Below are positions 898-36,918 of a stretch of 64,000 bases of DNA, piece after piece. The position numbers and the translations under genes are program-made. Origin of the DNA: an uncultured Chloroflexia bacterium. Lineage in GTDB: Bacteria > Chloroflexota > Limnocylindria > Limnocylindrales > CSP1-4. Every line of letters starts with the position of its first letter. The stretch's first letter is position 1. The notes under the pieces are model-generated. The model worked only from the letters and a program-made list of their open reading frames with translations, was not told where the DNA came from and made no database searches. The stretch is taken from positions 928,001 to 992,000 of the forward strand of contig CAWEYL010000001.1 of the NCBI GenBank assembly GCA_963813335.1, given 5' to 3'.

Positions 898-1842
898 CTA
901 GTCGAACTGGACGGAGTCGACGATCTGCTGGATCTCGTCGGAGACCTCGGGGCTGGTGCCCTTGTACGTCTCGGCCTCGATGAAGACCCGACCGGCGGGC
1001 GCGTCCACGATCCAGATGGCGATGGTCTGGCCAGCCTCGCTGGCATAGCGCCAGCACGGGCCGGTGTCACCGCCGCATCCCGGCGCGTTGGACTCGAACC
1101 AGAGGTTGAACTTGTCGGGTGCGCACCCGAGCGTGTCGGGGAGCCTGAGCACGAGGTGCTTCGCGGGACGCCCGCCCACGGTGACGTCCGACGGGCCGGT
1201 GACGACCGTGACCTTGGGGATCGCGGCCACGGCGGCCGCGAGATCGGCCGCCGACGATCCCGGCGCGGTCGCCAGCGCCGTCGTGGTGCAGGGCACGGCG
1301 TTCACGTTGTCGACGTCCCAGAGGATGAACCACGAACCGGTGAGGGGCCCGTCGGCGGCGGCGGCGCCCCGGTTCATCGTCGACGGCACCGCGCCGATCG
1401 TGGTCCAGCCGGGTGCCGGGACCGCGAGCGAGAGCGGGACGCCGTTGACGATCCAGGGGTACCTCGTCCCGACCTTGAGGTCGGTCTCGCGCGGATAGTC
1501 GTTGGCGACGGGCGTCGCGGCGGGGGTCGGGACGGGCGTCGGCGACGGCGTCGGGGCGGGCGTCGGCGATGCAGTGGGCACGGCGCCGCCCCCTCCGACC
1601 CCAGCGCTCGCCGGCATCAGGTTGATCCCGACGACCACGACGACGACCACGGCGGCCGCGGCGACCAGGAGCTTGGCGTAGGCATTCATGTCGGCGATCC
1701 TCCGCGCCGGCCACCAGGAGCGGCGCTGTGGGGTCGTGTCCAGCAGGGCGAGGACGTGTTCCAGGACGCGGTCCGCGGATTCGTGCTCGTCCGTGCGCAG
1801 CCACGACCGGACGACGCGCGTGATGTCGGGATCGGCGCTCAT
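898..1842 (-). CDS. Putative single-pass anti-sigma factor (cytoplasmic N-terminus, TM helix, Pro/Thr linker, extracytoplasmic domain)
   Basis: Start overlaps the stop of the ECF sigma gene; TM LLVAAAAVVVVVVVGINL; PT repeats; Cys residues in the C-terminal domain. Confidence 0.7.
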   Translation of the reverse strand: MSADPDITRVVRSWLRTDEHESADRVLEHVLALLDTTPQRRSWWPARRIADMNAYAKLLVAAAAVVVVVVVGINLMPASAGVGGGGAVPTASPTPAPTPSPTPVPTPAATPVANDYPRETDLKVGTRYPWIVNGVPLSLAVPAPGWTTIGAVPSTMNRGAAAADGPLTGSWFILWDVDNVNAVPCTTTALATAPGSSAADLAAAVAAIPKVTVVTGPSDVTVGGRPAKHLVLRLPDTLGCAPDKFNLWFESNAPGCGGDTGPCWRYASEAGQTIAIWIVDAPAGRVFIEAETYKGTSPEVSDEIQQIVDSVQFD

Positions 1843-2387
1843 CAGATGACCTCCCGTACGGGTGGCCGGGAATCGGCCTCGAGCGCCGCGCGCAGCGCGC
1901 GCATCGCGTGATGCAGTCGGGAATGGGCCGTCCCGACCGGGATGCCGAGGATGTCGGCGACCCGATCGAGGGGCAGGTCGAGGTAGTGATGCAGGACCAC
2001 CACGGTGCGGTGATCGAGGGAAAGGCGATGGAAGCCGCGGTCGAGCTGGTCCCGATCGACGACCGAGCTCAGGCCATCGTCCGCGACCACCTCGTCGCTC
2101 GGCAGGAGCCGGAGGTTGGGCGCCCAGCGTCGTTCCTTCCGGCCCTCGGCGTAGCAGGCGCGCACGAGGAGTCGGTACGACCAGGCCTCGAAGCGGGCCG
2201 CGTCGCCGAGTCGCGGAAGGTCCCGCCAGATGGCGAGCAGCGCCTGCTGCGTCGCGTCCTCGGCGAGATCGATGTCGCGCAGGATCCTCCGCGACACCGC
2301 GAGGAACCGGTCGGCGACCGCGGTGGCCAGGAGGGTGTAGGCCTCCTTGTCACCTCGCTGGGCACGGACGACGAGATCGGTATCCAC
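1842..2387 (-). CDS. ECF-type RNA polymerase sigma factor
   Basis: Region 2 (AEDATQQALLAIW, FEAWSYRL) and region 4 (VADILGIPVGTAHSRLHHA); GTG 2387 after GAAGGGA, alternative ATG 2399. Confidence 0.9.
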   Translation of the reverse strand: MDTDLVVRAQRGDKEAYTLLATAVADRFLAVSRRILRDIDLAEDATQQALLAIWRDLPRLGDAARFEAWSYRLLVRACYAEGRKERRWAPNLRLLPSDEVVADDGLSSVVDRDQLDRGFHRLSLDHRTVVVLHHYLDLPLDRVADILGIPVGTAHSRLHHAMRALRAALEADSRPPVREVI

Positions 2388-2518
2388 GGTCCCTTCCATC
2401 CGACGTCATCGGCTTCGTCCGATGCGCGTCACCTGGTATGGGTCGTCCGGGTGTCGTTCTTTGTCAATCTTCCGTCGGCGATCCCGCCTGCGGAGCGCCG
2501 TGCCTGCGGATCGTCCGC

Positions 2519-2788: not shown

Positions 2789-4006
2789 TCAGCCCCCGAC
2801 GACCAGCACCTCGCGAGGGAACCGGGTCAGGCGCTCGACCCGCTGCGCCTCGACGTCGAGCAGGACGAGATCCTCGATGCGAACGCCGGTCTCGCCCTCC
2901 AGGTAGACACCCGGCTCGACCGAGAAGACCGTGGGGCTCGGGAGCGGGCTCTCGGACGCGGCCTTGCCGAGGCTCGGCGCCTCGTGGGTCGCGAGGCCGA
3001 TGCCGTGCCCGGTCCCATGGCCGAAGTGCTCGGCATGGCCGCCCGCGGCGATGACCGACCGGGCGATCGCGTCGGCGGCCCGGCCGCTGATGGTGGTGCC
3101 CCCGGCCACGGCCGCCTCGAGCGCCTCGATCGCCGCCGACTGCGCCCGCGCCACGAGCTCGTAGACCTCGAGGTCGCGCGCCGTGGGCTCGCCGACGAAC
3201 AGCGTGCGGGTCATGTCGCTCCGGTAGCCCTCGACCTGCGCTCCGAAATCGAACAGCAGGACCGCGCGATCGAGCACGGGTCGGTCGCCCGGCGACCCGT
3301 GCGGCAGCGCGGCCTCCGGTCCGGCGAGGCAGGCGACATCGAACGCCAGCGCCTCCGCCCCGCCGGTCCGGATCAGCCACTCCAGCCGGAGCGCGAGGCT
3401 GTGCTCGGTGACACCGGCGCGGATCTCGGGCAGCAGCGCGGCGAGCGCGCGGTCGGCGACGGCGCATGCCGCGGCGACGCGCTCGAGCTCGGCCGGCTCC
3501 TTCGTAGCGCGGTCGGCCTCCAGCCAGCCCTCGACCGGGACCAGTTCGACGTCCGGGGCGGCCGCCGCGAGGCGGGTCCAGGTCGCGTGGGAGACGAACC
3601 CGGCCTCGACCGCGACCCGGCGCGCGCCGATCGAGCCGACGAGGTCCGGCCAGCGCTGGTCGAGGTTGCCGTAGACGTCGGTGATGCGGGCGTCGGGTGC
3701 CTCGCGGCGGGCCTGGATCGCGTAGCGCGAATCGGCCAGGAGCACGACCTCGTCGGCACCCACGAGGAACTGGCCCGACGTGCCGGCCGACTTCTCCTCG
3801 CCCTCGCCGAAGGCCAGGCCGGTCAGGTAGCGGGCGTGCTCGGGCCGCACGCCGAAGTAGGCGTCGACGCCGGCCGCGGCCCAGCGAGCGCGCAAGCGGG
3901 CCAGCCGGGCGGGCCGGGCTGCGCGGTCAGCCGCCGCCCATCCGGCTCGTCGCGTCGCGTCCGGCGGCGGATCGAAGTCCGCGTGGACCGGCCACGAGCC
4001 GGTCAT
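2789..4006 (-). CDS. pepP: Xaa-Pro aminopeptidase/dipeptidase (M24 family)
   Basis: DFG..GYRSDMTRT, HGTGHGIGL..HEAP, EPGVY..GVRIED; ATGA overlap with the mltG stop. Confidence 0.9.
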   Translation of the reverse strand: MTGSWPVHADFDPPPDATRRAGWAAADRAARPARLARLRARWAAAGVDAYFGVRPEHARYLTGLAFGEGEEKSAGTSGQFLVGADEVVLLADSRYAIQARREAPDARITDVYGNLDQRWPDLVGSIGARRVAVEAGFVSHATWTRLAAAAPDVELVPVEGWLEADRATKEPAELERVAAACAVADRALAALLPEIRAGVTEHSLALRLEWLIRTGGAEALAFDVACLAGPEAALPHGSPGDRPVLDRAVLLFDFGAQVEGYRSDMTRTLFVGEPTARDLEVYELVARAQSAAIEALEAAVAGGTTISGRAADAIARSVIAAGGHAEHFGHGTGHGIGLATHEAPSLGKAASESPLPSPTVFSVEPGVYLEGETGVRIEDLVLLDVEAQRVERLTRFPREVLVVGG

Positions 4007-5379
4007 ATGTAGCCGTACTTCTTCAGCAGCTTCTGGAACGCGGCGTTGTCCTTGGCGAAGGCGTGCGTGCCACCGCCGTCCGGGATGGCCACGAAGTACA
4101 GGTTCTTGTCCTTCGTGTCGGGCTCGAGGGCCGCGTCGATCGACGGCAGCGTCGGCGTGGCGATCGGCCCCGGGACCAGCCCCGGGTTGAGGTAGGTCTG
4201 GTAGCCCTGCAGCTCGGGCGGCAGGACGACCTCCTTCATCGGCACGTCGGGCAGCGTCCAGAAGACGTACTTCTGCCACTGGTCGAAGTCGATCTTGCCG
4301 AGCTCGACCGTGTCGTTGGCGTAGATGACCGTCGGGTCGGCGTTGAGGATCTTGTTCTTGATGCCGGGCAGCCCGTCGATGCGGTTCTGGTAGACGCCGG
4401 CGATCAGCGCGCGCTCGTCGTCGAGGACGGCCTCGCGCTCGACGATGGAGGCCAGGGTCAGCACCCCGTAGAAGTCGAGGCCGCGCTCCTTCGGGACCGC
4501 GAGGCGCTCCGGGCCGACGTTCTTGATGAAGTTGTCCAGCATCAGCCGGACGAGCTCATCGGCGGTGGTGTCCGGGAGGACCTTGTACGAGGCGGGCCAG
4601 AGGAAGCCCTCGAGCGAGACGCCGGGATGGTCCTTGAGCACCGCCTTGAGCCACGGGTAGTCGTCCAGCAGCGCCTTGGGCGGCTTGGTGACCTCGTCGT
4701 AGAAGTCGTGCGGGTCCATCTGGAGCGGCAGCGTCTGGAGCTTGGCGGTCACCTGCTCGAGCCGGAGACCGGTCCGCAGCGCGATGTCGACGTACGGGAC
4801 CGCGGGCGGGTCGAGGAGCGCCGTGACGAGGTCGTTGGGGATCATGTTCTTGCGCAGCAGGAAGGTGCCGGCCTGCAGCGCGTTCTCCTTGCCGCGATCG
4901 CTCGCGAGGAGGACGAAGGCCCGCGCGTCGCGGAGGAGCCCGTCGTGCTGCAGCCGGGCCGCGATCGTCGAGGCCGTATCGCCCTGCTCGACGACGAACT
5001 CGACCTGCGCCGGGTCGCTGGCCGCCGGCTGGGTGAGGGCGGGACCGAGGTCGTCGCGCACGATGTCGTGGACGAACGGCAGCTCGAGCGCGGCGGGATT
5101 GTCGGCCGCCCAGCCCACGACCGCGCTGGTGACCAGCGGGCGGAGGGCGGTGATGGCGAGGATGAGCACGATCCCGGCGAGCACGAGGGCGAAGAGCAGG
5201 AAGCGCAGCAGGCCGCCGACGCCGTGGCCGCCGCCGGGGCCGCGATCGCGCCGGCCGCCGCCGCCGCGGGTCGGCTCGACCCAGGTCGGCTCATCGGCGG
5301 TGGCGTAGGCGTCGGGGTCATAGGGATGGGCCTGGGTGCCGCGGCCATCCCGGGGGCGTCCGCCGGAGCGGATCGTCAT
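4003..5379 (-). CDS. mltG: Endolytic transglycosylase MltG (YceG family)
   Basis: N-terminal TM; LEGFLWPASY, LASIVERE (catalytic Glu), NADPTVIY, GLVPGPIATP, LYFVA. Confidence 0.92.
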   Translation of the reverse strand: MTIRSGGRPRDGRGTQAHPYDPDAYATADEPTWVEPTRGGGGRRDRGPGGGHGVGGLLRFLLFALVLAGIVLILAITALRPLVTSAVVGWAADNPAALELPFVHDIVRDDLGPALTQPAASDPAQVEFVVEQGDTASTIAARLQHDGLLRDARAFVLLASDRGKENALQAGTFLLRKNMIPNDLVTALLDPPAVPYVDIALRTGLRLEQVTAKLQTLPLQMDPHDFYDEVTKPPKALLDDYPWLKAVLKDHPGVSLEGFLWPASYKVLPDTTADELVRLMLDNFIKNVGPERLAVPKERGLDFYGVLTLASIVEREAVLDDERALIAGVYQNRIDGLPGIKNKILNADPTVIYANDTVELGKIDFDQWQKYVFWTLPDVPMKEVVLPPELQGYQTYLNPGLVPGPIATPTLPSIDAALEPDTKDKNLYFVAIPDGGGTHAFAKDNAAFQKLLKKYGYI

Positions 5380-5876
5380 GTGCTGGTCTCCGGTGCGTCG
5401 TCGTGGGTGCGGGGCATGGACGAACGATGCCCTGCGCGTGTGTCGAGCTCGTCCTGGAGGATGATCGCCGCCGCTTCCCGATCCACCCGTGCCCGGTAGG
5501 CGTCGCGCTGGGTCTTCGAGGGCGGCCCGCCCGACCGTCCGCGCTGCATCGGACCGAGGCGGTCCTCCGCGAGCTGGCTCGTCAGGCGCTCGTCGCGAAA
5601 GGTTAGCGGCAATCGCAGATCCGCGGCGACGGCGTCGGCCCAGGCGATCGTGATCGCCGCCTGGCGGCCGGTCTCGCCGGAGGCCTCCAGCGGGAGGCCG
5701 ACGACCAGCTCGTCGATCCCGTGGGCATCCACGAGCGCCCGGAGCGCGGCCACGTCGCCGGCGAGGTCACGGGCACGGCGCACCGTCGTGAGCGGCCGTG
5801 CCGGCACGCCGTCGCCATCCGAGATGGCGATGCCGACACGGCGCTCCCCGAGGTCGACCCCCAGGAGCCGCGTCAC
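5376..5876 (-). CDS. ruvX: Holliday junction resolvase-like RuvX/YqgF (pre-16S rRNA nuclease)
   Basis: LGVDLGERRVGIA, VVGLP, DERLTS, VDREAAAIILQ. Confidence 0.92.
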   Translation of the reverse strand: MTRLLGVDLGERRVGIAISDGDGVPARPLTTVRRARDLAGDVAALRALVDAHGIDELVVGLPLEASGETGRQAAITIAWADAVAADLRLPLTFRDERLTSQLAEDRLGPMQRGRSGGPPSKTQRDAYRARVDREAAAIILQDELDTRAGHRSSMPRTHDDAPETST

Positions 5877-7735
5877 TGGCTGGGCGATGGCGACGGAGCC
5901 ACCACCTGGACCGGCTCGTTGATCGTCAGCTGGACCCGTCCCTCCATCGTCGGGATCGTCGTGACCCAGTCCGGCCAGGTCTCGATCGTGACCGTGCCGT
6001 AGGCCTCGAGCGTCGCTGTCGCCTGCTCGACGGACTGGCCGAGGACCATCGCCTTGAGCGCATCGGGGTCGAGGATCGCGATCTGCGTCGCGCTCGCCGT
6101 GGCCGGGAACGAGACCACGCCGTCCTTGACGACCGCCGGGGACACGTCCACCTTGATCGAGCCGTCGACCAGCTCGTGGTCCGCGTCGATCGTGGCCATC
6201 AGGTGCGCCTCGGCGACGGCCTCCACCGGCTCCTGGTTCACCGCGGTGGCGGTCCCGGTCGCGGTCAGGCCCAGCTCGAAGGTGTCGACCTCCTTGTTGA
6301 GCAGCGTCGCCGGGTCGACGGTCGGGGTCGCCGGGCCGAGCACGCCGGTCTCGGGGAAGACCGTGGCGCCGGCCGGCGCGATGGACGGATCGGACAGCTT
6401 CGCCGTGAACTCCGCCTGCAGCGCCGGCTGGAGGGCCGCCAGGGCGGCATCGATGTCCTTCTGCGTGACCTTGAGCGTCTCCACGTGGGTCCCACCGGTC
6501 GTGGCGTCGGGATTGAGGACGTCGAGGGCGATGGGGTCCTCGCCGCGCGGGATGACGGTGATGGTGTTCGGCTCGACGTTGCCCTGCGTCCCCTTCTCCA
6601 CGGCGGTCACCTTGACGGTCGCCGTCTTGGGGAAGACCGTCACCCCCACGATGTCCGCCCGGCCGACCGTGATCGTCTGGGCCGTCCGGAAGCGGACCCC
6701 GGACGGGGTGCTGACGATGCTGCCGCCCGGGATCGTGTTCGAGGACGTGAAGTCGCGGTTGCGGAACCGGACGGTCCCGGTCGCGGCGGTCTCCTCGACG
6801 CGCTTGCCGGTCGCCGGGAAGGTGTCGGTCGTCGTGACGTCGACGTCGATGATGTCGGCGGGCACGACGCCCTTGACCGGGTCGGGCGTCGTGACCGACG
6901 GGTCCGCCACGATCGTCATCGGGATGGGGCCGACCGCCTCGTGCTTCGGCGTGACCACGATGGTGGCCGAGGGCAGGAACAGGTAGGCCGCCACGCCCAG
7001 GACAAGGACGAGCAGCCCGATGACGAGCGCCCCGACGATGAGCGGCGTCCGCCCGCCGGGTCCGCCGCCGGCGGCGCTGACGGGGCGGGTCACGGTCGTC
7101 GGCGGGGGCGGCAGGCCCGCGGCCGGCGGGGCCGGCTCGCGTGGCGGCGCCGACCAGCCCGCCGGCGTGGCCTGGGTCCGGGCCTCGGCCTGGAGGGCCG
7201 CCGCGGCGGCCGCCAGCTCGGCCGCCTCGGCCTCGTCGAGCGTCTGCTGGAACGATGTCTGGGATGGCGGCGCGGCAGCGGGCTGCTTGCGCGGTCGCCC
7301 ACCGGCTCGCGGCGAGGTCGTGCCCGCGGGTGGGACCGGGACGGACGGCCCGGGACCGGCGGCTGCCGCGCCGAGGGCGGCCGCGCCAGCGGCCGCGGCC
7401 CCGGGGGCGGCGGCTCTCCCGCCCCCGCCATCGCCCGGCCCGGCCCGTGCGGCCGGCGCCTCCTGCGAGCCCTCGTATTCCGCGACGGTCGCGAAGACCG
7501 GCAGCCCGGCCGAAGCCGCGAGCGCCCGCGTGGCCGGATCGCCGGCGATCACCGACAGCCGCTTCTCGTGGGTCAGCGCGTCGCGGGCCAGGAGGCGGAA
7601 ATTGATCCGCGAGGTCGCCACCCGCGACCCGTGCGGCAGCACGACGGCGACGCGGCGGCCCTCCGCCGCGCGGACCCGCGCGGCTGCCGAGGTGATCTCG
7701 TCGTCGATGTCGAGGTAGATGACGCCGCTTGCCAT
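5873..7735 (-). CDS. Single-pass membrane protein with extracytoplasmic baseplate J/gp47-like domain
   Basis: N-terminal globular domain (IYLDIDDEITS), Ala/Pro linker, TM LIVGALVIGLLVLVLGVAAYLFL, then J-like pattern ATGTVRF..TIPGGSIV..GVRFRT..VTAVEKGTQGNV..NTIT..NPDATTGG; family call by motif recognition. Confidence 0.75.
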   Translation of the reverse strand: MASGVIYLDIDDEITSAAARVRAAEGRRVAVVLPHGSRVATSRINFRLLARDALTHEKRLSVIAGDPATRALAASAGLPVFATVAEYEGSQEAPAARAGPGDGGGGRAAAPGAAAAGAAALGAAAAGPGPSVPVPPAGTTSPRAGGRPRKQPAAAPPSQTSFQQTLDEAEAAELAAAAAALQAEARTQATPAGWSAPPREPAPPAAGLPPPPTTVTRPVSAAGGGPGGRTPLIVGALVIGLLVLVLGVAAYLFLPSATIVVTPKHEAVGPIPMTIVADPSVTTPDPVKGVVPADIIDVDVTTTDTFPATGKRVEETAATGTVRFRNRDFTSSNTIPGGSIVSTPSGVRFRTAQTITVGRADIVGVTVFPKTATVKVTAVEKGTQGNVEPNTITVIPRGEDPIALDVLNPDATTGGTHVETLKVTQKDIDAALAALQPALQAEFTAKLSDPSIAPAGATVFPETGVLGPATPTVDPATLLNKEVDTFELGLTATGTATAVNQEPVEAVAEAHLMATIDADHELVDGSIKVDVSPAVVKDGVVSFPATASATQIAILDPDALKAMVLGQSVEQATATLEAYGTVTIETWPDWVTTIPTMEGRVQLTINEPVQVVAPSPSPSQ

Positions 7736-7737
7736 CG

Positions 7738-9000
7738 TCAGACCTTCATCGCGCGGAGGACCCGGCGCAGCGCGGCATCGAGCGCGTCCTCGGTCGTCTG
7801 CAGCTCGATGGCCTGGTAGGCCAGCCCGAGCGGCGTGACGTCCTGCTGGTCGACCAGGAGGTGGGTCGCGTCGGAGATCGTCTCGATCTGGTCCGGCGCC
7901 ATCACGACCACCTCGGGCGGCCGCGCGAACGGCAGCCCCTTCCAGAACGCCTCCGCCCCGAGGGCGGCCTGGATCTCCGGCAGCCGCGAGCCGCCGCCGC
8001 ACAGGAAGATCCGATTGGGCAGCAGGTCGCCGCCAGACAGCTCCTCCATCACGAGCTCGACGCCCGCCGCCCACACGCGGACGTCGTCCCCGATGATCGA
8101 ACCGACCGTGTCGCGGTCCTCGACCGGCAGGCCGCGGGCGTAGTCGACCTTCAGCGCCTCGGCTCGCGGGAACGGCAGGTCGAGGCGGTCGGCGAGGCTC
8201 TTGGTGAACGCCCGGCCCCCGAGCGCGAACATGCGCGTGCCCTCGATCCCGCCCTGGCGGACGAGCGCCACGTCGGTCGTGCCGCCCCCGACGTCCACGA
8301 AGAGGGCGCCGGACTGGCGGATCTGGTCGTTGCCGAGGACGCGGGCCACGGCGTACGGCTCGGCGACGATCTCGAGCAGCTCGAGGTCCAGCTGGCTGGC
8401 GACGCTCTGGAGCGCCCCGAGGTGGACGAGCGGCGCGAACGCGTTGAAGATGCCGATCTTGACGTGACGGCCCTGGAACCCGACCGGGTTGGTCAGGGCG
8501 TAGCCGTCGATGGACGCGCCGGTCACCGCCGCGTGGACGAGGCGCACGTCGACCTGCGGCAGGCCGGTCTCCCAGGTGATGGCCCGCTCGGCCTCGCGCA
8601 GCGCCGCCCGCTGGACGTTGTCGATGAGCTTCTGCAGCTCGCTCTCGGTGATGGGCTGGTCCGGCTTCTTGCGCTCCTGGGCGTGGGTCGTGGTGAAGCC
8701 CTTCACCAGCTCGCCGGCGATGCCGATGACCACCTGGGTCGGCCGGAAGCCGGCCATCTCCTCGGCCTCCTGGAGCGCGACGGCGCAGTTGTCGACCACG
8801 GCGGCGATGTCGGCGACGGTGCCGGACTGCATGTGCGACAGGCCCTGCCGCTTGCGACCGACGCCGCGGACCGTGCCGTGGCCGCCGCTGTCGATGTCGA
8901 AGACGAGCGCCTTGGCGAACTCCGTCCCGACATCGAGCGCCGTGCAGGCGACGAGGCTCTCCTGGCCATCGCGCTGCCAGATGCGGCGCCAGAAGGCCAT
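7738..9000 (-). CDS. FtsA-like actin-superfamily ATPase (no ftsZ/dcw context)
   Basis: Phosphate-1 ALDVGTE, connect-1 AEPYA, phosphate-2 VDVGGGTTD, adenosine LCGGGSRLP; FtsA 1C-like segment (IDGYALTNPVGFQG). Confidence 0.85.
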   Translation of the reverse strand: MAFWRRIWQRDGQESLVACTALDVGTEFAKALVFDIDSGGHGTVRGVGRKRQGLSHMQSGTVADIAAVVDNCAVALQEAEEMAGFRPTQVVIGIAGELVKGFTTTHAQERKKPDQPITESELQKLIDNVQRAALREAERAITWETGLPQVDVRLVHAAVTGASIDGYALTNPVGFQGRHVKIGIFNAFAPLVHLGALQSVASQLDLELLEIVAEPYAVARVLGNDQIRQSGALFVDVGGGTTDVALVRQGGIEGTRMFALGGRAFTKSLADRLDLPFPRAEALKVDYARGLPVEDRDTVGSIIGDDVRVWAAGVELVMEELSGGDLLPNRIFLCGGGSRLPEIQAALGAEAFWKGLPFARPPEVVVMAPDQIETISDATHLLVDQQDVTPLGLAYQAIELQTTEDALDAALRRVLRAMKV

Positions 9001-11747
9001 CAGGCCTTCGCTTGGACGGCGGCGCGCACCGCGTCCAGGGCGGCCGGCAGCCCGTCGCGCCGGCGGCCCGCTCCCTGGGCCATCTCGGGACGCCCGCCGC
9101 CCCGGCCGTCGAGCGCCGGCATGGCGGCGCGCACGAGGTCGCCGGCGGCGATCCCGCGCGCGACCAGGTCGGACGACACGGTCACGAACAGCTGCGGCTC
9201 GTCCGCGTCAAGGGCGAGTGCGACGACGCCCGACCCGAGCGCCTTGCTGACCGAGCGCGCCGCGCCCTTGAGGGCCTCCATGGACTCGTACGGCGCGGCG
9301 TGCGCCACCACCCGGACGCCAGGCCCCACCTCGACGGCGTCCGCGGCGAGCTGCTCGGGTGCGGCGATGGCCGCCCCGCCGCCGGCCTTCAGCCGCTTCC
9401 TCGCCTCGCGAAGCTCGTCCTGCAGGCCGCCGATCCGCTCCGGGACCGCCTCGAGCGACTGGGCGCCGACCGCCTCGGCGGCCCGCTCGAGCGTGTCCAG
9501 GCGGGCGCGGATGAGCGCGTCCGCCCCAGCGCCGGTCACGGCCTCGATCCGCCTGGTGCCGGACCCGATGCTCCGCTCCGAAGTGATGACGAAGGCGCCG
9601 ATCTGGCCGCTCGCCCGGCAGTGGGTGCCGCCGCACAGCTCGAACGAGTAGTCCTGGACGCGGATGGTCCGGACGGTCTCGCCGTACTTCTCATCGAAGA
9701 AGGCGTCCGCGCCGCCTTCGATCGCCTCGGCCATGCTCATGAACGCGATGGAGACGGGCCGGTCCTCGCGGATGATGCGGCGGACCTCGTCCTCGATGGC
9801 GCGGCGCTCGTCGTCGGTCAGCGCCCGGTCGAACGGGAAGTCGAAGCGCAGGCCCTCCGGGGTGACGAGCGAGCCGGCCTGGCGGGCCCGCTCGCCCACC
9901 ACGTTGCGGAGCGCCCGGTGGAGCAGGTGCGTGCCCGTGTGGTTGCGCATCGTGTGCGCGCGCCGATCCGCGTCGACCTCGGCGCTCACGGTCTCGCCGA
10001 CGCGCAGCCGGCCGCGCAGGGTCCCCCGCTGGACGATGAGGCCGCCGAGGGGCTTCTGGGTGTCCTCGACGTCGAAGAGGACGCTGCCGCCGCCCGGCTC
10101 TCGCAGGACCCCGCGGTCGCCGACCTGCCCGCCGCCCTCGGCGTAGAAGGGCGTCCGGTCCAGGATCACCTCGACCGCGCCGTGGCCGGTCAGCTCGTCG
10201 AACTCGGTCCCGTCGCGCAGGATCGCGACCACGCGGCCGTCGGCGGTCGTGGTGTCGTAGCCGAGGAAGGCCGTGTCGCCGGCGCGGGCGTGGACGGCCT
10301 GGTAGATGGCGGTCAGGCCGGCATGCTTCGAGAGCTCGGCCTTCTTGCCCGAGCGCGAGCGGTCGCGCTGCTCGGCCAGCGCGGCATCGAACCCGGCGCG
10401 GTCCACGCCGACCCCGTGCTCGGCGGCCAGCTCGATGGTCAGGTCGATCGGGAACCCGAACGTGTCATGCAGCTTGAAGGCCACCTCGCCCGACAGCTGC
10501 GGCACTTCGGCTGGCAGGTCCTCGGGTCGCCGTCCCACGATCCGGTCGCTGGTCGTCAGGCCACCCAGCGCCTCCTCGAGCAGCCGCGAGCCCGCGCCGA
10601 GCGTCCGGGCGAACTGCGCCTCCTCGCGGGCGACGACCGAGAGGATCTCGTCCCGCCGCTCCACGAGATGCGGGTACGCCCCGCCCATGACGTCGATGAC
10701 GACCCCCGCGGTCTCGGCCATGAACGGCGCCTGGCGGCCGAGCAGCCGGCCGTGGCGGACGGCCCGGCGCAGGATCCGGCGCAGGACGTAGCCGCGCCCT
10801 TCGTTGGAGGGCAGGACGTCGTCGCCGATCAGGAAGGTCACGGCCCGGGAGTGGTCGGCGATCACCTGGAAGCTGAAGCGCTCGGCCTCGAACGCCTCCG
10901 GGTCATGGCCCAGCAGCTCGCGCATCCGCTCGTGGATCGGCGCGAAGAGGTCGGTGTCGTAGTTGGACGGGACCTGCTGGATGACGCTCGCGAGGCGCTC
11001 CAGGCCCATCCCGGTGTCGACGCTCGGGAACGGCAGCGGGACGCGGCCGTCGGGCCGCTGGTCGAACTCCATGAACACGAGGTTCCAGATCTCCAGCCAG
11101 CGCGGACAGGTCTCCGAGTGGTCGGGCACGCACTCGGGGCCTTCCGACAGATGCGCGCCGCGATCGAAGTGGATCTCGCTGCACGGGCCGCACGGGCCGG
11201 TCTCGGCCATCCGCCAGAAGTTGTGGTCGTCACCGCGGTCGACGTCGCCCCAGGCCGCCATCCGCTCGGGCGGGATGCCGATCTCGTCGCGCCAGATCGC
11301 CCGCGAAACCTCGTCGTCCGTGTAGGTCGTGACGGCGAGCCGATCGCCGGGGATGCCGAGGTCGCGGGTCAGGAAGTCCCAGGCGTACTGGATCGCCTCG
11401 CGCTTGAAGTAGTCGCCGAAGCTCCAGTTCCCCAGCATCTCGAAGAGCGTGTGGTGGCGCGGAGACCGGCCGATCTCCTCGAAGTCGTTGTGCTTGCCGG
11501 CGACGCGCAGGCAGCGCTGGTAATCGACGGCGCGGGTGTACGAGCGGGTCTCCGCCCCGGTGAAGACCTCCTTGAACTGGACCATCCCGGAGTTGGTGAA
11601 CAGCAGGGTCTGGTCGCCCGCCGGGACGAGGCTGGCGCTCGGGACGGCGGCATGCCCGCGCTCGGCGAAGAACTCCACGAACCGCCGACGGATCTCGGCG
11701 GCCGGCAGGGAGACGATCCGCGGATCTGGGGCCTCGGCGGGTGGCAT
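9000..11747 (-). CDS. alaS: Alanine--tRNA ligase
   Basis: LLFTNSGMVQFK, FEMLGNWSFGDYFK, GPCGPCSEI, HTGTHLLH, ELCGGTH, GGGRPEMAQG. Confidence 0.98.
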   Translation of the reverse strand: MPPAEAPDPRIVSLPAAEIRRRFVEFFAERGHAAVPSASLVPAGDQTLLFTNSGMVQFKEVFTGAETRSYTRAVDYQRCLRVAGKHNDFEEIGRSPRHHTLFEMLGNWSFGDYFKREAIQYAWDFLTRDLGIPGDRLAVTTYTDDEVSRAIWRDEIGIPPERMAAWGDVDRGDDHNFWRMAETGPCGPCSEIHFDRGAHLSEGPECVPDHSETCPRWLEIWNLVFMEFDQRPDGRVPLPFPSVDTGMGLERLASVIQQVPSNYDTDLFAPIHERMRELLGHDPEAFEAERFSFQVIADHSRAVTFLIGDDVLPSNEGRGYVLRRILRRAVRHGRLLGRQAPFMAETAGVVIDVMGGAYPHLVERRDEILSVVAREEAQFARTLGAGSRLLEEALGGLTTSDRIVGRRPEDLPAEVPQLSGEVAFKLHDTFGFPIDLTIELAAEHGVGVDRAGFDAALAEQRDRSRSGKKAELSKHAGLTAIYQAVHARAGDTAFLGYDTTTADGRVVAILRDGTEFDELTGHGAVEVILDRTPFYAEGGGQVGDRGVLREPGGGSVLFDVEDTQKPLGGLIVQRGTLRGRLRVGETVSAEVDADRRAHTMRNHTGTHLLHRALRNVVGERARQAGSLVTPEGLRFDFPFDRALTDDERRAIEDEVRRIIREDRPVSIAFMSMAEAIEGGADAFFDEKYGETVRTIRVQDYSFELCGGTHCRASGQIGAFVITSERSIGSGTRRIEAVTGAGADALIRARLDTLERAAEAVGAQSLEAVPERIGGLQDELREARKRLKAGGGAAIAAPEQLAADAVEVGPGVRVVAHAAPYESMEALKGAARSVSKALGSGVVALALDADEPQLFVTVSSDLVARGIAAGDLVRAAMPALDGRGGGRPEMAQGAGRRRDGLPAALDAVRAAVQAKA

Positions 11748-11784
11748 CGGGCGCAATGGTACCGAACGCAGCGCCCGCGGCGGC

Positions 11785-25353: not shown

Positions 25354-27648
25354 TCAGCCGAGGTCGCGCTGGACGCTGATGACGTCCTTGAGGGTCTCGA
25401 TGCGGCTCATGAGGCGGGCCAGCTGGCTGACCGAGTGGACCTGCAGCGTCGCGGTGACGACCGCGGTGTGGTCCGGGGTAACGGCGACCTGGGCGGCGAC
25501 GATGTTGACCTTGTTCTCGGCCACCACCTGGGTGATATCCGAGAGCAGCCCTGTCCGGTCGTACGCCTCGACCCGGATCGCGATCGGGTAGCTCTGGGTG
25601 GGCTCGGCCTCCCACTCGGCCTCGATGAGCCGGCTGACCTCGCGCTCGTTGACCACGGTCGGGCAGGTCTGGAGGTGGACCGTGACGCCCTTGCCGCGGG
25701 TGATGAACCCGACGATCGGGTCGCCCGGGATCGGGTGGCAGCACTTGGCGAACCGGACGAGGAGGTCGCCGACGCCCTTGACCCGGACGCCGCCGGTGCG
25801 GACCAGCTGCTGCGGCGGCGCGATCGTCGGGAGGGACGTCTGCCCGTCGTCGACGACGCCGAGGCGCATGACCACCGACTGCGCGCCGACGGCGCCGTAG
25901 CCGATGGCCGCGTAGAAGTCATCGAGCGTCTCGTAGTTGTAGGCCTTGGCGACCTCGACGACGCGGTCGACGCCGACCGTGGCGATGGAGGTCCGGGCCA
26001 GCCGGCGCAGCTCGCGCTCGAGCGACTCGCGGCCGTGGACGATGTTCTCGTCGCGGTCCTTGCGCTTGAACCATTGGCGGATCTTCTCCCGCGCGTGGCT
26101 GGTCCGGACGACGTTCATCCAGTCGCGCGACGGCCCGTGCTCGCCCTTGGTCGTGACGATCTCGACGATGTCGCCGTTCTTGAGGCGATAGTCGAGCGGG
26201 ACCAGCCGGTTGTTGACCTTGGCGCCGATCGTGCGGTGGCCGACGTCGGTGTGGATGCGGTAGGCGAAGTCGAGCGGGGTCGCGCCGGCCGGCAGGTCCT
26301 TGATGTCGCCCTTCGGGGTGAACACGAAGACCTGGTCCTGGAAGATGTCGAGCTTGATGCCCTCGACGAACTCGGTGGCGTCGCTGACGTCGCGCTGCCA
26401 GTCCATCAGCTGGCGCAGCCAGGCGAGCTTGGCGTCGTACTCGCGGTCGGACTTGGTCCCCTCCTTGTAGCGCCAGTGGGCGGCGATGCCGACCTCGGAG
26501 ACCTGGTGCATCTGGTGCGTCCGGATCTGGATCTCGAGCGGCTTGCCGTCGAGCGCGATCACCGCGGTGTGCAGCGACTGGTAGAGGTTGTTCTTCGGGA
26601 CCGCGATGTAGTCGTCGAACTGGCCGGGGATGGGCCGCCAGATGGAGTGGACGATGCCGAGCGCCGCGTAGCAGTCGCGGACCTCGTCCACGAGCACGCG
26701 GATGGCGTACACGTCGTAGATCTCGCCGAACTCCGCGCTCTTGCGCTGCATCTTCTTCCAGATGCTGTAGATGTGCTTCGGGCGGCCCTCGATGTCGGCC
26801 TGGATGCCCGCCGCCTCGAGCTTCGGACGAAGGTCGGCGATGGCGCGCTCGATGTAGCTCTCGCGGCCCTTGCGCCGCGTGTCGAGGAGCTTGGCGAGCT
26901 CGCGGAAGGTCTCGGGCTCGAGCACCTTGAAGGCGAGGTCCTCGAGCTCCCACTTCATCTGCCAGATCCCGAGCCGCTCGGCCAGCGGCGCGTAGATCTC
27001 CATCGTCTGGCGGGCGATGCGCTGCTGCTTCTCCGACGGGAGGCCGTACAGGGTGCGCATGTTGTGCAGCCGGTCGGCCAGCTTGATGAGGACGACCCGG
27101 ATGTCCTCGGCCATCGCCAGCAGCATCTTGCGGATGTTCTCGGCCTGCTGCTGCTCGTGGCTATGGGTGCTGAACTTGGAGAGCTTGGTGACCCCGTCGA
27201 CGAGCTGGGCCACCTCGGGTCCGAAGCGTTCCTCGACGTCGGTGAGGCTGTACTCGGTGTCCTCGGGGACGTCGTGGAGGAGTGCCGCCTCGATGGCGAT
27301 CGGGTCGACGCCCAGGTCGGCGAGGATCTGCGCCGAGGCGATGGGGTGGGTGACGTACGGCTCGCCGGTGGCACGGCGCTGGCCCTTGTGGGCGTCGACG
27401 GCGACGTCGAAGGCCCGATCGACCGGCTCGAGGCTGGCATCCGGGTAGTGGCGGGCGATCTCGGTCTTCAGCGCCGTGCGCAGCGCCTCGAGGTCCGGCT
27501 CCCCGCCCGACGGCCCGCGGGCGATGGCCGGGGCGCGGCGCGGACCTCTCCGAGAGGCGGCGTCGACGGGAGCGGACGCGGCCTTGCCCGGGCCGGGAGC
27601 CGCCTTGGGCCCGGCGGGGGTCTTCGTGCGGGCGGAGCTGGTCGCCAT
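25354..27648 (-). CDS. rel: Bifunctional (p)ppGpp synthetase/hydrolase (long RSH)
   Basis: HD domain LLHDVPED, KLADRLHNMRT, GRPKHIYSI, YQSLHT, EIQIRT, TGS (DFAYRIHT), ZFD (KCCHP), ACT. Confidence 0.97.
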   Translation of the reverse strand: MATSSARTKTPAGPKAAPGPGKAASAPVDAASRRGPRRAPAIARGPSGGEPDLEALRTALKTEIARHYPDASLEPVDRAFDVAVDAHKGQRRATGEPYVTHPIASAQILADLGVDPIAIEAALLHDVPEDTEYSLTDVEERFGPEVAQLVDGVTKLSKFSTHSHEQQQAENIRKMLLAMAEDIRVVLIKLADRLHNMRTLYGLPSEKQQRIARQTMEIYAPLAERLGIWQMKWELEDLAFKVLEPETFRELAKLLDTRRKGRESYIERAIADLRPKLEAAGIQADIEGRPKHIYSIWKKMQRKSAEFGEIYDVYAIRVLVDEVRDCYAALGIVHSIWRPIPGQFDDYIAVPKNNLYQSLHTAVIALDGKPLEIQIRTHQMHQVSEVGIAAHWRYKEGTKSDREYDAKLAWLRQLMDWQRDVSDATEFVEGIKLDIFQDQVFVFTPKGDIKDLPAGATPLDFAYRIHTDVGHRTIGAKVNNRLVPLDYRLKNGDIVEIVTTKGEHGPSRDWMNVVRTSHAREKIRQWFKRKDRDENIVHGRESLERELRRLARTSIATVGVDRVVEVAKAYNYETLDDFYAAIGYGAVGAQSVVMRLGVVDDGQTSLPTIAPPQQLVRTGGVRVKGVGDLLVRFAKCCHPIPGDPIVGFITRGKGVTVHLQTCPTVVNEREVSRLIEAEWEAEPTQSYPIAIRVEAYDRTGLLSDITQVVAENKVNIVAAQVAVTPDHTAVVTATLQVHSVSQLARLMSRIETLKDVISVQRDLG

Positions 27649-36473: not shown

Positions 36474-36570
36474 GGCCGGGAGTGTAGCACCGGGTCCTGC
36501 ACGCGCCTGTGACGGCGAAGCCGCCGCACGTGCGCGCGCGCCATGCCGGACGCCGCGGCGGATCCGCGGG

Positions 36571-36918
36571 TCAGACCTCGCGGATGCGCCGCAGGAAGTC
36601 CTCGTCGATCTCGATGTCGGCGCCGTCGTCCGGCCCACCCAGCGCGGCGGGGACGACGATCTCGCCGTGGACCCCGGTGGCGACCGGCATCGGCCGATCG
36701 CCTGCCGCGAGCGACGCCGGCATGATCTCGAGGAAGCGGACGTTGAGATACGGGAAGAAGAAGACCGAGTGCATGTCATCGACGAAGACAGGCCGCTTGC
36801 CATTCATCTGCCGCATGTTGGTGCAGCGGATCGTGGCATCGCCCGGGGTCGGCATCTCGAACAGGTCCACGAGCAGCGGCTGCTCGCCGTTGATATGGAG
36901 CACGACGTTGTGGATCAC
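36571..36918 (-). CDS. Hypothetical cytoplasmic protein (115 aa)
   Basis: Normal protein composition, beta-rich N-domain plus acidic tail; fills the gap between the Ig/CAP gene and topA. Confidence 0.75.
   Translation of the reverse strand: MIHNVVLHINGEQPLLVDLFEMPTPGDATIRCTNMRQMNGKRPVFVDDMHSVFFFPYLNVRFLEIMPASLAAGDRPMPVATGVHGEIVVPAALGGPDDGADIEIDEDFLRRIREV

What the first reader, a model, noticed from the sequence alone, without database searches (positions are those of the whole stretch)
4003..9000. Candidate undescribed envelope system: orphan FtsA-like actin + membrane-anchored baseplate-J-like protein inside the alaS-ruvX-mltG operon
Seen: alaS -> actin ATPase (1-nt stop/start overlap at 9000) -> J-like protein (2-nt gap) -> ruvX (GTGA) -> mltG (ATGA) -> pepP (ATGA), i.e. 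one tightly coupled unit behind a single promoter. There is no ftsZ/dcw gene, no pilNOP and no other phage structural gene in the window. Known: alaS-ruvX-mltG is a conserved arrangement, and in Firmicutes the slot between alaS and ruvX holds IreB/ReoM, a peptidoglycan-synthesis regulator. Bacterial actins typically act through a bitopic partner (FtsA-FtsN, MreB-RodZ, PilM-PilN), and baseplate J/gp47 wedge proteins oligomerise into rings. Inference: the actin binds the cytoplasmic domain of the J-like protein and positions an extracytoplasmic ring or scaffold that works with the glycan terminase MltG, making this a phage-derived cytoskeleton/cell-wall module. I recall similar gene pairs in Chloroflexota and Patescibacteria but know of no functional characterisation.
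Basis: partly seen in the sequence, partly recalled or inferred. Interest (0 to 1): 0.88.

Follow-up and report, generated by a model that had tools for sequence, protein, structure and literature searches.

The report
Conserved Chloroflexota actin and membrane partner
Inside a housekeeping operon, this Chloroflexota bacterium carries an extra FtsA-like cytoskeletal ATPase followed by a membrane-spanning protein with one phage-baseplate-type domain; the pair is kept and lost together across several classes of the phylum, but its suggested cell-wall role is untested.

Summary
On the minus strand, alaS, a 420-aa FtsA-like ATPase, a 620-aa bitopic protein, ruvX, mltG and an M24 peptidase follow each other with the stated overlaps.

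- **The ATPase is an extra paralog.** The genome has a canonical ftsA-ftsZ pair and two mreB genes elsewhere.
- **The "J-like" label covers one domain.** Only about 100 residues resemble baseplate J. The rest is a conserved cytoplasmic N-domain, a disordered tether, one membrane helix and an unknown C-terminal part.
- **The bitopic gene is widespread.** It occurs in at least 173 of 301 sampled Chloroflexota genomes, usually just upstream of ruvX-mltG.
- **The ATPase is narrower.** Orthologs occur in 92 of 301 genomes, directly upstream of the bitopic gene in every case checked.
- **The two genes are lost together.** In two Limnocylindria lineages both are cleanly absent, while alaS-ruvX-mltG, FtsA and MreB remain.

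Best reading: an accessory filament-plus-adaptor pair, analogous to MreB-RodZ or FtsA-FtsN, acting on the envelope. I found no publication on it. It is a new variant of a known kind, of moderate to high interest.

The parts
9000..11756 (-). alaS (alanyl-tRNA synthetase), gene upstream of the cassette
   Evidence: 918-aa frame. Homologous alaS lies upstream of the cassette in 66 of 80 Limnocylindria loci showing the full gene order. Its stop shares base 9000 with the next start.
7738..9000 (-). FtsA-family actin-fold ATPase, 420 aa (P0002); an extra paralog, not the divisome FtsA
   Evidence: PF14450 50 bits; TIGR01174 104.9 bits, below the 175.85 cut-off. Best solved relative is FtsA 7q6f, E 2.4e-13, residues 20-292. 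Nucleotide-binding motifs are invariant in 40 orthologs: D23, G25, T26, K30, D236, G238, G335, G336. Canonical ftsA lies elsewhere.
7741..7785 (-). Extreme C-terminal amphipathic helix of the ATPase (residues 406-420), a candidate membrane-targeting or partner-binding helix
   Evidence: Best 11-mer helical hydrophobic moment has a median of 0.80 over 40 orthologs. Interior control windows give a median of 0.43 and a 95th percentile of 0.70. The pattern is conserved in alignment A2.
5873..7735 (-). Bitopic 'J-barrel' protein, 620 aa (P0001)
   Evidence: Translation. The start at 7735 agrees with 106 aligned homologs. The stop-to-stop frame runs on to 8074, but that extension is not conserved as protein.
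7460..7735 (-). JN: conserved cytoplasmic N-domain (residues 1-92), apparently alternating strands and helices, of no known family
   Evidence: Most conserved part of A1: S37, R43, N45, L49, A76 are invariant. Found by HMM in most loci. No PDB or Pfam relative: best PDB E 0.31; best Pfam E 0.005, in 1 of 43 members.
7043..7459 (-). Low-complexity cytoplasmic tether (residues 93-231; A 30%, P 19%, G 15%)
   Evidence: Composition. Length varies between lineages, reaching about 400 aa in Ktedonobacteria.
6974..7042 (-). Single transmembrane helix (residues 232-254)
   Evidence: Kyte-Doolittle 19-residue mean of 3.0, the only such segment. One helix at the same relative place in nearly all relatives.
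6473..6802 (-). Baseplate-J-type beta-barrel domain (residues 312-421), extracytoplasmic
   Evidence: Pfam Baseplate_J 32.1 bits, profile 17-115 of 255. phrog_6 'baseplate wedge subunit' E 1.6e-13, profile 145-237 of 548. The family profile's best PDB hits are gp47 9ki1_H (E 0.011), gp65 9g8s_C (0.019) and ORF62 9euf_C (0.063) over the same stretch.
5876..6472 (-). Extracytoplasmic C-terminal region (residues 422-620) of unknown fold
   Evidence: Conserved as a family (A4). No meaningful PDB hit. A PASTA-like motif was not confirmed: hhalign probability 21.6% over 31 columns.
5376..5876 (-). ruvX (YqgF), GTGA overlap with the J-barrel gene
   Evidence: PF03652 99 bits; TIGR00250 78.6 bits. Junction.
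4003..5379 (-). mltG (YceG endolytic transglycosylase)
   Evidence: PF02618 199 bits; TIGR00247 137.1 bits, cut-off 103.4. ATGA junction.
2789..4006 (-). Xaa-Pro/M24 peptidase, last gene with a start/stop overlap
   Evidence: Peptidase_M24 179.9 bits and Creatinase_N 71.5 bits. ATGA junction.

Best explanation
The two genes form one accessory cassette, specific to several Chloroflexota classes and inserted in the conserved alaS-ruvX-mltG operon.

The first product is an FtsA-family ATPase that keeps its nucleotide-binding motifs. It carries a conserved amphipathic helix at its extreme C-terminus. I infer that it binds the inner face of the membrane and polymerises, as FtsA and MreB do.

The second product is a bitopic protein. 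It has a small folded cytoplasmic N-domain on a long disordered tether, one membrane helix, and an outer part made of one baseplate-J-type barrel plus about 200 residues of unknown fold. I infer that it is the transmembrane adaptor of the ATPase, analogous to RodZ for MreB, FtsN for FtsA or PilN for PilM. It would pass the position or state of a cytoplasmic filament to the wall-facing side of the membrane.

Shown here: the gene anatomy, the paralog status, the family-wide architecture, strict adjacency, and joint loss.
Inferred only: polymerisation, membrane binding, direct ATPase/N-domain contact, and any action on peptidoglycan or on MltG.

My odds:
- The two genes are one functional unit: about 0.85.
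- They touch directly: about 0.5.
- The target process is cell-wall or envelope growth: about 0.5.
- MltG is a direct partner: about 0.25.

The confidence figure given for this explanation is for the whole picture: a filament-plus-adaptor pair acting on the envelope.
For: - **Paralog status.** Canonical ftsA (413.8 bits) sits next to ftsZ (413.6 bits) at G000:C1:466298-469098, and there are two MreB genes. In a quick ML tree the J-adjacent ATPases are split from canonical FtsA plus MreB by a branch of 1.98 with SH-aLRT 98.
- **Constraint.** Over 18 loci the ATPase is the slowest-evolving protein of the cluster. Mean pairwise p-distances are 0.446 for the ATPase, 0.485 for alaS, 0.602 for JN and 0.711 for the outer part. 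Orthologs in the top 120 hits are 86-94% identical to it. ATP motifs are invariant in 40 orthologs.
- **C-terminal helix.** Its hydrophobic moment has a median of 0.80, against 0.43 for interior controls.
- **Cassette behaviour.**
  - ATPase orthologs (150 bits or more; the next best score is 90.7) occur in 92 of 301 genomes.
  - In all 17 such genomes where the first search had missed the partner, the partner's N-domain lies directly downstream.
  - 72 of 72 evaluable Limnocylindria loci have the ATPase directly upstream.
  - In 33 of 33 loci the two genes share a strand, with gaps of -4 to 534 nt and a median of 98.
  - In G046, G106, G133 and G269, alaS abuts ruvX-mltG-pepP with about 50-nt gaps and both genes are missing. 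FtsA and two MreB are kept there.
- **Conserved architecture.** The order N-domain, tether, one membrane helix, J barrel is conserved across classes. 9 of 10 diverse members pass the Pfam Baseplate_J cut-off on the same part of the profile.
- **Envelope context.** ruvX or mltG follows directly in 73 of 73, 36 of 37 and 9 of 12 evaluable loci in the three locus sets. The gene was not found in the nine sampled genomes of the Dehalogenimonas family (f19), which also lack mltG. A paper passage says the related D. mccartyi lacks peptidoglycan.
Against: - **No binding test.** No structure or complex prediction could be run, so there is no test of binding at all.
- **Partner without the ATPase.** The partner gene occurs without any ATPase ortholog in the genome in whole families. 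Examples are f9 (Anaerolineales), f20, f36 and f15, where the best ATPase hits of about E 1e-13 to 1e-19 equal canonical FtsA. Most of these keep the N-domain, so the N-domain must have another role or another partner.
- **Co-evolution signal depends on the method.** The partial correlation of ATPase with JN, given alaS, is 0.48 with p-distance and Pearson. It falls to 0.26 with Kimura distances and ranks, lower than ATPase with mltG at 0.36.
- **No extra constraint on JN.** JN is not clearly more constrained where the ATPase is present: 0.72 against 0.72 at matched alaS distance.
- **No true fusion.** The one candidate, P0023, is a frameshift artefact.
- **Weak link to MltG.**
  - mltG is present in 264 of 301 genomes, including families with no J-barrel gene: f13 0 of 18 and f30 0 of 7.
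  - Four loci have the pair, or the J-barrel gene, without ruvX-mltG downstream: L122, L164, L168 and L171.
  - alaS-ruvX-mltG is a conserved arrangement in its own right, so adjacency may only reflect shared expression.
- **Dispensable.** The module was lost in two lineages.
Confidence: 0.45

Rival explanations
1. The J-barrel protein is the autonomous core: an envelope or cell-wall protein of Chloroflexota. Its N-domain binds something general, such as canonical FtsA, FtsZ, MreB, a nucleotide or a nucleic acid. The ATPase is a later, lineage-specific regulator or chaperone that need not touch it.
For: - The J-barrel gene is found in at least 173 of 301 genomes, the ATPase in 92 of 301.
- In 18 of 39 evaluable diverse loci alaS directly abuts the J-barrel gene.
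- The N-domain is retained in most ATPase-less lineages.
- The ATPase-JN co-variation signal is not robust.
Against: - The ATPase was never seen away from the J-barrel gene.
- Both genes were lost together.
- The ATPase is extremely conserved, which is unusual for a dispensable add-on.
Confidence: 0.25
2. The adjacency is operon hitch-hiking only. The two proteins act in processes unrelated to MltG or the wall, for example cell-cell junctions, sheath or S-layer anchoring, or a membrane-associated ATPase of another kind.
For: - alaS-ruvX-mltG stands alone in families f16 and f6 and in four Limnocylindria genomes.
- Some Ktedonobacteria have the pair without ruvX-mltG downstream: L164, L168 and L171.
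- No wall-binding or catalytic domain was detected in the outer part.
Against: - The gene sits in the same slot in all three locus sets: ruvX or mltG follows in 73 of 73, 36 of 37 and 9 of 12 evaluable loci.
- The outer part and MltG give the highest between-protein partial correlation in the 32-locus set, 0.41 against 0.05-0.25 for the other between-protein pairs. This measure is weak.
- The gene is not found in the sampled mltG-less families.
Confidence: 0.12
3. It is a PilM/PilN-like assembly platform for a pilus, pseudopilus or other surface fibre.
For: - It is an actin-fold ATPase followed by a bitopic protein, as in pilM-pilN.
- Weak PilM matches: PF11104 E 0.00092; TIGR01175 32.8 bits.
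- One public record names an ortholog PilM.
Against: - The TIGR01175 score is far below its cut-off of 133, and FtsA models score higher.
- There are no pilO/P/Q, pilin or secretion ATPase genes in the window.
- The partner has an 85-90-residue folded N-domain, not a short PilN-type N-terminal peptide. The PilN feature is recalled, not tested.
Confidence: 0.05
4. It is a domesticated phage-tail or contractile-injection remnant, and the J-like protein builds an extracytoplasmic ring as baseplate wedges do.
For: Significant profile matches to the baseplate wedge families: Pfam 32.1 bits; phrog_6 E 1.6e-13 to 1.8e-15 in 4 proteins.
Against: - The match covers one barrel domain only: profile 145-237 of 548, or 17-115 of 255.
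- tblastn against phages gives no match.
- The genome has a single Baseplate_J match and the window has no tail genes.
- The gene is inherited with housekeeping neighbours across classes.
Confidence: 0.05

Closest known systems
FtsA (divisome actin; TIGR01174, PF14450)
   Same: - It is the best family and best solved relative: 7q6f E 2.4e-13 over residues 20-292, an alignment that runs through the region of FtsA's 1C subdomain.
- ATP motifs are intact.
- It has an amphipathic helix at the extreme C-terminus, as in FtsA's membrane-targeting helix. That FtsA feature is recalled; the helix here was computed.
   Different: - It scores below the equivalog cut-off: 104.9 against 175.85 bits.
- It is not next to ftsZ, and the genome has a true ftsA-ftsZ pair.
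- It forms a separate clade from Chloroflexota FtsA.
- The last roughly 130 residues do not align to FtsA.
MreB-RodZ, FtsA-FtsN and PilM-PilN (actin-fold ATPase with a bitopic partner)
   Same: - A membrane-associated actin-fold ATPase is paired with a single-pass protein that has a cytoplasmic binding part and an outer domain.
- The two genes are adjacent.
- The RodZ layout (folded cytoplasmic domain, linker, membrane helix, beta-rich outer domain) is the nearest parallel. That layout is recalled.
   Different: - No RodZ, FtsN or PilN family signature was detected in the partner.
- The N-domain belongs to no known family.
- The outer part carries a phage-type barrel.
- No interaction was tested here.
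Baseplate J / gp47 / T4 gp6-type wedge proteins (PF04865, phrog_6)
   Same: There is one homologous barrel domain of about 100 residues, with a shared 'G..GNV' motif and a following 'GG'.
   Different: - The rest of the wedge protein is absent.
- It is membrane-anchored, with a cytoplasmic domain.
- It sits in a chromosomal housekeeping context, is vertically conserved, and has no tail neighbours.
IreB/ReoM in the alaS-ruvX slot of Firmicutes (recalled, not checked here)
   Same: A lineage-specific gene with a proposed cell-wall role occupies the same slot, between alaS and ruvX-mltG.
   Different: No sequence relation was detected: none of the 43 N-domains scanned hit an IreB family at E up to 1. 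The size, topology and domain content are entirely different.
ZipA-type tethered membrane anchors (recalled)
   Same: A folded cytoplasmic binding domain is held to a membrane helix by a long Pro/Ala-rich disordered linker.
   Different: The orientation is opposite, there is a large outer domain, and there is no sequence similarity.

Membership tests
FtsA (equivalog TIGR01174) | Score at or above the curated cut-off (175.85 bits) | tested here: not met
   104.9 bits for residues 20-289. The genome's canonical FtsA scores 413.8 bits.
FtsA (equivalog TIGR01174) | Encoded beside ftsZ or in the dcw cluster | tested here: not met
   ftsZ is at G000:C1:468145-469098, beside the canonical ftsA. The window has no ftsZ.
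FtsA (equivalog TIGR01174) | C-terminal amphipathic membrane-targeting helix (feature recalled) | tested here: met
   The C-terminal 11-mer has a median hydrophobic moment of 0.80 in 40 orthologs, against 0.43 for interior controls. This is a computed property only, and membrane binding is not shown.
FtsA (equivalog TIGR01174) | Actin-fold nucleotide-binding motifs | tested here: met
   D23, G25, T26, K30, D236, G238, G335 and G336 are invariant in A2.
FtsA (equivalog TIGR01174) | Binds the FtsZ C-terminal peptide | not testable with these tools
   No complex prediction was available.
Baseplate J / gp47 (PF04865; phrog_6) | Pfam gathering score reached | tested here: met
   32.1 bits against 21.1. 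9 of 10 diverse relatives also pass.
Baseplate J / gp47 (PF04865; phrog_6) | Match over most of the family profile | tested here: not met
   Only profile positions 17-115 of 255 (Pfam) and 145-237 of 548 (phrog_6) are matched.
Baseplate J / gp47 (PF04865; phrog_6) | Neighbouring tail or baseplate genes (prophage, tailocin, injection system) | tested here: not met
   None among the 42 window frames scanned. There is a single Baseplate_J match in the whole genome. tblastn against phages gives no match.
Baseplate J / gp47 (PF04865; phrog_6) | Wedge fold and ring-forming oligomer | not testable with these tools
PilM/PilN | PilM model cut-off (TIGR01175, 133 bits) and pilN/O/P neighbours | tested here: not met
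   32.8 bits. No pil genes in the window.
MreB | MreB model cut-off (TIGR00904, 365.75 bits) | tested here: not met
   25.3 bits. Two true MreB genes lie elsewhere, at 479.7 and 482.6 bits.
RodZ-like adaptor (by analogy only) | RodZ domains (cytoplasmic helix-turn-helix; C-terminal DUF4115; recalled) | tested here: not met
   No such Pfam family was reported for P0001, for 10 relatives or for 43 N-domains. Only the topology is alike.
Anti-phage defence systems (PADLOC) | Match to any PADLOC model | tested here: not met
   P0001 has none. P0002 has only PDC-M61B, E 0.0064, 13.2 bits.

The most novel reading that the evidence does not exclude
This is a third bacterial actin system beside FtsA and MreB. 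A strongly conserved, membrane-bound FtsA-family filament is coupled, through its own RodZ-like transmembrane adaptor with a phage-derived barrel domain, to the wall-facing side of the membrane. There it organises glycan-strand processing by MltG or envelope growth. It is present in Limnocylindria, Dormibacteria and Ktedonobacteria. The last are mycelial and are reported to lack mreBCD, so this could be their growth-zone cytoskeleton.
Probability: 0.2. Interest if true: 0.82.

Novelty: new variant of a known kind. Interest (0 to 1): 0.6.

Why it matters
- **A large uncharacterised family.** It has 5099 cluster representatives at E up to 0.001. It is present in at least 173 of 301 sampled genomes of a major, poorly understood phylum.
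- **An unannotated partner.** In Limnocylindria, Dormibacteria and Ktedonobacteria it comes with a dedicated FtsA-family ATPase. That ATPase evolves more slowly than alanyl-tRNA synthetase.
- **Open questions in Chloroflexota cell biology.** How these bacteria build and shape their envelope is unclear. Ktedonobacteria grow as mycelia, and a paper passage reports no mreBCD in them.
- **A testable entry point.** A filament-plus-adaptor pair in the mltG operon can be studied in cultured carriers. The identical partner proteins are on record for Thermogemmatispora carboxidivorans, Dictyobacter vulcani and Ardenticatena maritima.
- **Misleading database names.** Public records call the ATPase 'cell division protein FtsA', 'rod shape-determining protein', 'PilM' or 'glutamate mutase L'. 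They call the partner 'baseplate J/gp47 family protein'. These names can inflate divisome and prophage calls.

Tried and rejected
- The ESM Atlas did not hold the window's own protein. The stored homolog P0006 gave only Chloroflexota and two Saccharimonadota clusters. Nothing came up once PF04865 clusters were skipped.

Tests that gave nothing:
- **Fusions.** P0023 (980 aa, ATPase plus J domains) is a frameshift that slides into the upstream extension of the J frame. P0163 is also a frameshift. P0149 is the alaS tail joined to the ATPase by a gene call.
- **N-domain relatives.** None were found. The best PDB E is 0.31. Pfam gives scattered sub-threshold hits, for example PIN_4 in 2 of 43 at E 0.047.
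- **C-terminal 205 residues.** There is no meaningful PDB relative.
- **PASTA idea.** I thought its last 60 residues looked PASTA-like. hhalign against 35 PASTA domains from this class gave probability 21.6% over 31 columns, with controls at 0.8% and 0.1%. Rejected as unsupported.
- **Mirror-tree co-variation.** The result depends on the method. I do not use it as support.
- **Constraint on the N-domain with and without the ATPase.** Inconclusive.
- **Expression.** No RNA holder was listed.
- **Promoter and terminator scan.** 0 and 0 sites.
- **Rfam.** Only a tRNA was found.
- **tblastn against phages.** No match.
- **PADLOC.** Nothing of note.
- **Tree.** The careful tree search did not finish, so the tree is the quick one.

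Literature: seven full-text searches found no description of this pair. The terms were:
- 'baseplate J', FtsA, Chloroflexi
- 'baseplate J', mltG
- 'FtsA-like', Chloroflexota
- Ktedonobacter, FtsA
- 'baseplate J', actin-like, membrane, peptidoglycan
- PF04865
- ReoM, mltG, alaS

Of PMC10608941 I read only the passages returned by 'find'. Its Figure S14 and tables on dcw genes per class, which I could not see, may bear on the MreB statement.

Not tried: the third homologous-protein run, a metagenome scan, and any census outside Chloroflexota.

Full report
**What is there.** The window is G000:C1:928001-992000 of a 2.54-Mb, 81%-complete genome with about 73% G+C. Named homologs place it in Candidatus Limnocylindria, Chloroflexota. 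On the minus strand the genes run as follows:
- alaS (9000-11756)
- a 420-aa actin-fold ATPase (7738-9000)
- a 620-aa protein (5873-7735)
- ruvX (5376-5876)
- mltG (4003-5379)
- an M24 peptidase (2789-4006)

Family assignments of the flanking genes are firm.

**The rest of the window.** I picked 42 frames by third-position G+C. Pfam scans of them show housekeeping genes only: no phage structural gene, no ftsZ and no pilN/O/P. A Mur ligase and a MurJ frame lie about 20 kb away. The same-strand gene run continues upstream of alaS with a 28-nt gap, so a single promoter is not shown. The simple scan found no promoter-like or terminator-like sites.

**The ATPase.**
- It matches FtsA models best but stays below the equivalog cut-off: TIGR01174 104.9 against 175.85 bits. 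PilM and MreB models score far lower.
- Its best solved relative is FtsA 7q6f, E 2.4e-13 over residues 20-292.
- The genome has a canonical ftsA (413.8 bits) beside ftsZ (413.6 bits) at C1:466298-469098, and two MreB genes. This is therefore an additional paralog.
- In an alignment of 40 orthologs the phosphate-binding and adenosine motifs are invariant.
- The extreme C-terminus forms a conserved amphipathic helix. Its median hydrophobic moment is 0.80, against 0.43 for interior windows with a 95th percentile of 0.70. The N-terminus is basic and moderately amphipathic, at 0.57.
- In a quick maximum-likelihood tree of 31 sequences, the ATPases found next to the partner gene, including three divergent ones, are split from canonical Chloroflexota FtsA and MreB. 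The branch length is 1.98 with SH-aLRT 98. The careful search did not finish, and long branches are flagged.
- The protein is unusually constrained. The top 120 hits are 86-94% identical and nearly all 420 aa long. Over 18 loci from several classes its mean pairwise distance of 0.446 is lower than that of alaS at 0.485.

**The partner.** Its parts, in order, are:
- a conserved N-domain (residues 1-92)
- an Ala/Pro/Gly-rich stretch of 139 residues
- one strong hydrophobic helix (residues 232-254)
- about 365 further residues

There is no signal peptide and only one membrane helix. From this I infer that the N-domain is cytoplasmic and the large part lies outside.

Only residues 312-421 match known families:
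- Pfam Baseplate_J scores 32.1 bits, over profile positions 17-115 of 255.
- phrog_6 'baseplate wedge subunit' gives E 1.6e-13, over positions 145-237 of 548.
- A family profile picks gp47, a gp65 'triplex' protein and a baseplate component as its three best PDB hits, all on the same stretch, at E 0.011-0.063.

9 of 10 diverse relatives pass the Pfam cut-off on the same part of the profile, and no other family appears. The homology of this one barrel domain is therefore sound, but the protein as a whole is not a baseplate J protein. tblastn against 50,697 phage records finds nothing, and the genome has no second Baseplate_J match. The N-domain and the C-terminal 205 residues have no detectable relatives. 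A PASTA-like look of the last 60 residues was not confirmed.

**Distribution of the partner.**
- The family is large: 5099 representatives of 50%-identity clusters at E up to 0.001, and 321 at up to 1e-30.
- In 301 genomes sampled evenly from the phylum, a first search with a strict filter found it in 151.
- Targeted HMM rechecks added 17 of 17 genomes chosen because they had the ATPase but no partner hit.
- Rechecks also added 5 of 14 genomes chosen near their mltG. At least 173 of 301 genomes therefore carry it.
- The pattern is all-or-none by family.
- Using public names attached to identical proteins, it is present in these groups:
  - Limnocylindria
  - Candidatus Dormibacteraeota
  - Ktedonobacteria (Thermogemmatispora carboxidivorans, Dictyobacter vulcani)
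  - Anaerolineales
  - Ardenticatena maritima
- It was not found in the sampled families of Oscillochloris (0 of 18), Herpetosiphon (0 of 7) and Dehalogenimonas (0 of 9).
- mltG is in 264 of 301 genomes. It is absent from the small-genome families, including all nine genomes of the Dehalogenimonas family.
- The partner is thus nested within the mltG-positive genomes, but many mltG-positive families lack it.

**Gene order.**
- **80 Limnocylindria loci from species-representative genomes.** 66 show the full order alaS, ATPase, partner, ruvX, mltG, peptidase, and the other 14 show a shorter part of that order. Of 72 loci with enough upstream sequence, 72 have the ATPase directly upstream. Of 73 with enough downstream sequence, 73 have ruvX or mltG directly downstream.
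- **40 loci chosen for diversity.** 36 of 37 evaluable have ruvX or mltG downstream. Upstream, 16 of 39 have the ATPase, 18 have alaS directly, and 5 have something else.
- **17 ATPase-anchored loci.** 9 of 12 evaluable have ruvX or mltG downstream. The three exceptions are Ktedonobacteria.

The ATPase-partner link had no exception in what I examined. The partner-ruvX-mltG link is strong but not absolute.

**The ATPase across the phylum.**
- Scores are bimodal. 92 of 301 genomes have a hit of 150 bits or more. The next best is 90.7 bits, the level of canonical FtsA (my count from its table).
- Families with the partner but no ATPase ortholog anywhere in the genome include f9 (Anaerolineales), f20, f36 and f15.
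- Most of these keep the N-domain. It was not detected in f20, f42 and two f12 genomes.
- In the Ardenticatena locus and two other loci a divergent ATPase (28-31% identity by tblastn) sits in the same place.
- In Ktedonobacteria the cytoplasmic tether is about 400 residues long. One genome has extra partner paralogs elsewhere. In the two paralog loci I fetched, no ATPase was found.

**Joint loss.** Within Limnocylindria, two genomes of genus g12 (G046, G106) and two reduced genomes of 1.1-1.2 Mb in family f2 (G133, G269) have alaS abutting ruvX-mltG-peptidase, with gaps of about 50 nt. Both genes are missing. All four keep canonical FtsA and two MreB. The two genes therefore behave as one dispensable cassette that is not required for the neighbouring genes, for division or for MreB.

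**Tests of direct coupling.**
- The structure and complex predictors were closed, so no binding test exists.
- The one apparent fusion protein is a frameshift artefact.
- Co-variation of distance matrices, controlled for alaS, first looked as the model predicts. The partial correlations were ATPase with N-domain 0.48, outer part with MltG 0.82, ATPase with outer part 0.04, and ATPase with MltG 0.004.
- With corrected distances and ranks the specificity largely vanished: 0.26, 0.44, 0.14 and 0.36.
- Only the link between the outer part and MltG stayed highest among between-protein pairs in a 32-locus set (0.41).
- These loci are related to one another, so none of this is a probability. I treat it as a lead only.
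- The N-domain is not clearly more constrained where the ATPase is present.

**Reading.** The best-supported picture is an accessory pair. A membrane-associated, probably polymerising FtsA-family ATPase is encoded with its own single-pass partner. The partner holds a folded cytoplasmic domain on a flexible tether and presents a barrel-containing domain outside. This is the logic of MreB-RodZ, FtsA-FtsN and PilM-PilN, but neither protein is a member of those partner families. Its place in the mltG operon and its nesting within mltG-positive genomes point to the wall or envelope, and that is as far as the evidence goes. The idea that the N-domain exists to bind the ATPase is weakened by the many lineages that keep the N-domain without the ATPase.

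**Novelty.** Seven full-text searches found no description of this pair. Public records name the proteins only by family, and do so inconsistently. One paper, of which I read passages only, reports no mreBCD in any Ktedonobacteria genome and no peptidoglycan in Dehalococcoides mccartyi. I rate the pair a new variant of a known kind. Interest is moderate to high because the family is large, the ATPase is very strongly conserved, and cultured carriers exist for tests.

Noticed in passing
window 33039-36803 (-): One uninterrupted 1254-aa frame holds topoisomerase I domains (Toprim, Topoisom_bac, zinc ribbons) and then tyrosine-recombinase domains (Phage_int_SAM_1, Phage_integrase). It is either a real fusion or a lost stop. 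ARAGORN calls a tRNA-Arg at 35942-36035 inside it, which Rfam does not report.
   Followed up: no
window 27468-29717 (-) and 31470-32210 (-): There is a 749-aa Mur-ligase frame whose Mur domains start only at residue 192, and a frame matching the C-terminal half of MurJ.
   Followed up: no
L135, L146, L157-L160, L164-L173 (Ktedonobacteria loci); G217:C15, C244, C198: In Ktedonobacteria the partner is 870-1000 aa long, with a cytoplasmic linker of about 400 residues before the membrane helix. One genome has three further partner-like paralogs at other loci. No ATPase was found in the two paralog loci I fetched, L192 and L193.
   Followed up: partly
L118, L144, L145 (family f20), L141 (f42), L179, L180 (f12): In these lineages the partner has the outer part, but the conserved N-domain was not detected. 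In f20 only about 95 codons lie between alaS and the outer part.
   Followed up: partly
window 7736-8074 (-), frame of the partner gene: The partner's stop-to-stop frame runs 339 nt upstream into the 3' end of the ATPase gene. A single frameshift there yields the false 980-aa 'fusion' P0023 seen in a public collection.
   Followed up: yes
window 898-2399 (-): An ECF-type sigma factor (1842-2399) is followed, with a start/stop overlap, by a 314-aa protein of no Pfam family (898-1842). It is possibly its anti-sigma factor. Both lie on the same strand downstream of the peptidase gene.
   Followed up: no
G133 and G269 (family f2, same order as the window's genome): These are Limnocylindria relatives with genomes of only 1.1-1.2 Mb at 92-93% completeness. 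They lack the cassette but keep FtsA, two MreB, mltG and PASTA proteins.
   Followed up: partly
public names of ATPase orthologs (P0133, P0220, P0433, P0524 and others): The same ortholog group is named 'cell division protein FtsA', 'rod shape-determining protein', 'glutamate mutase L' or 'pilus assembly protein PilM' in different records.
   Followed up: no
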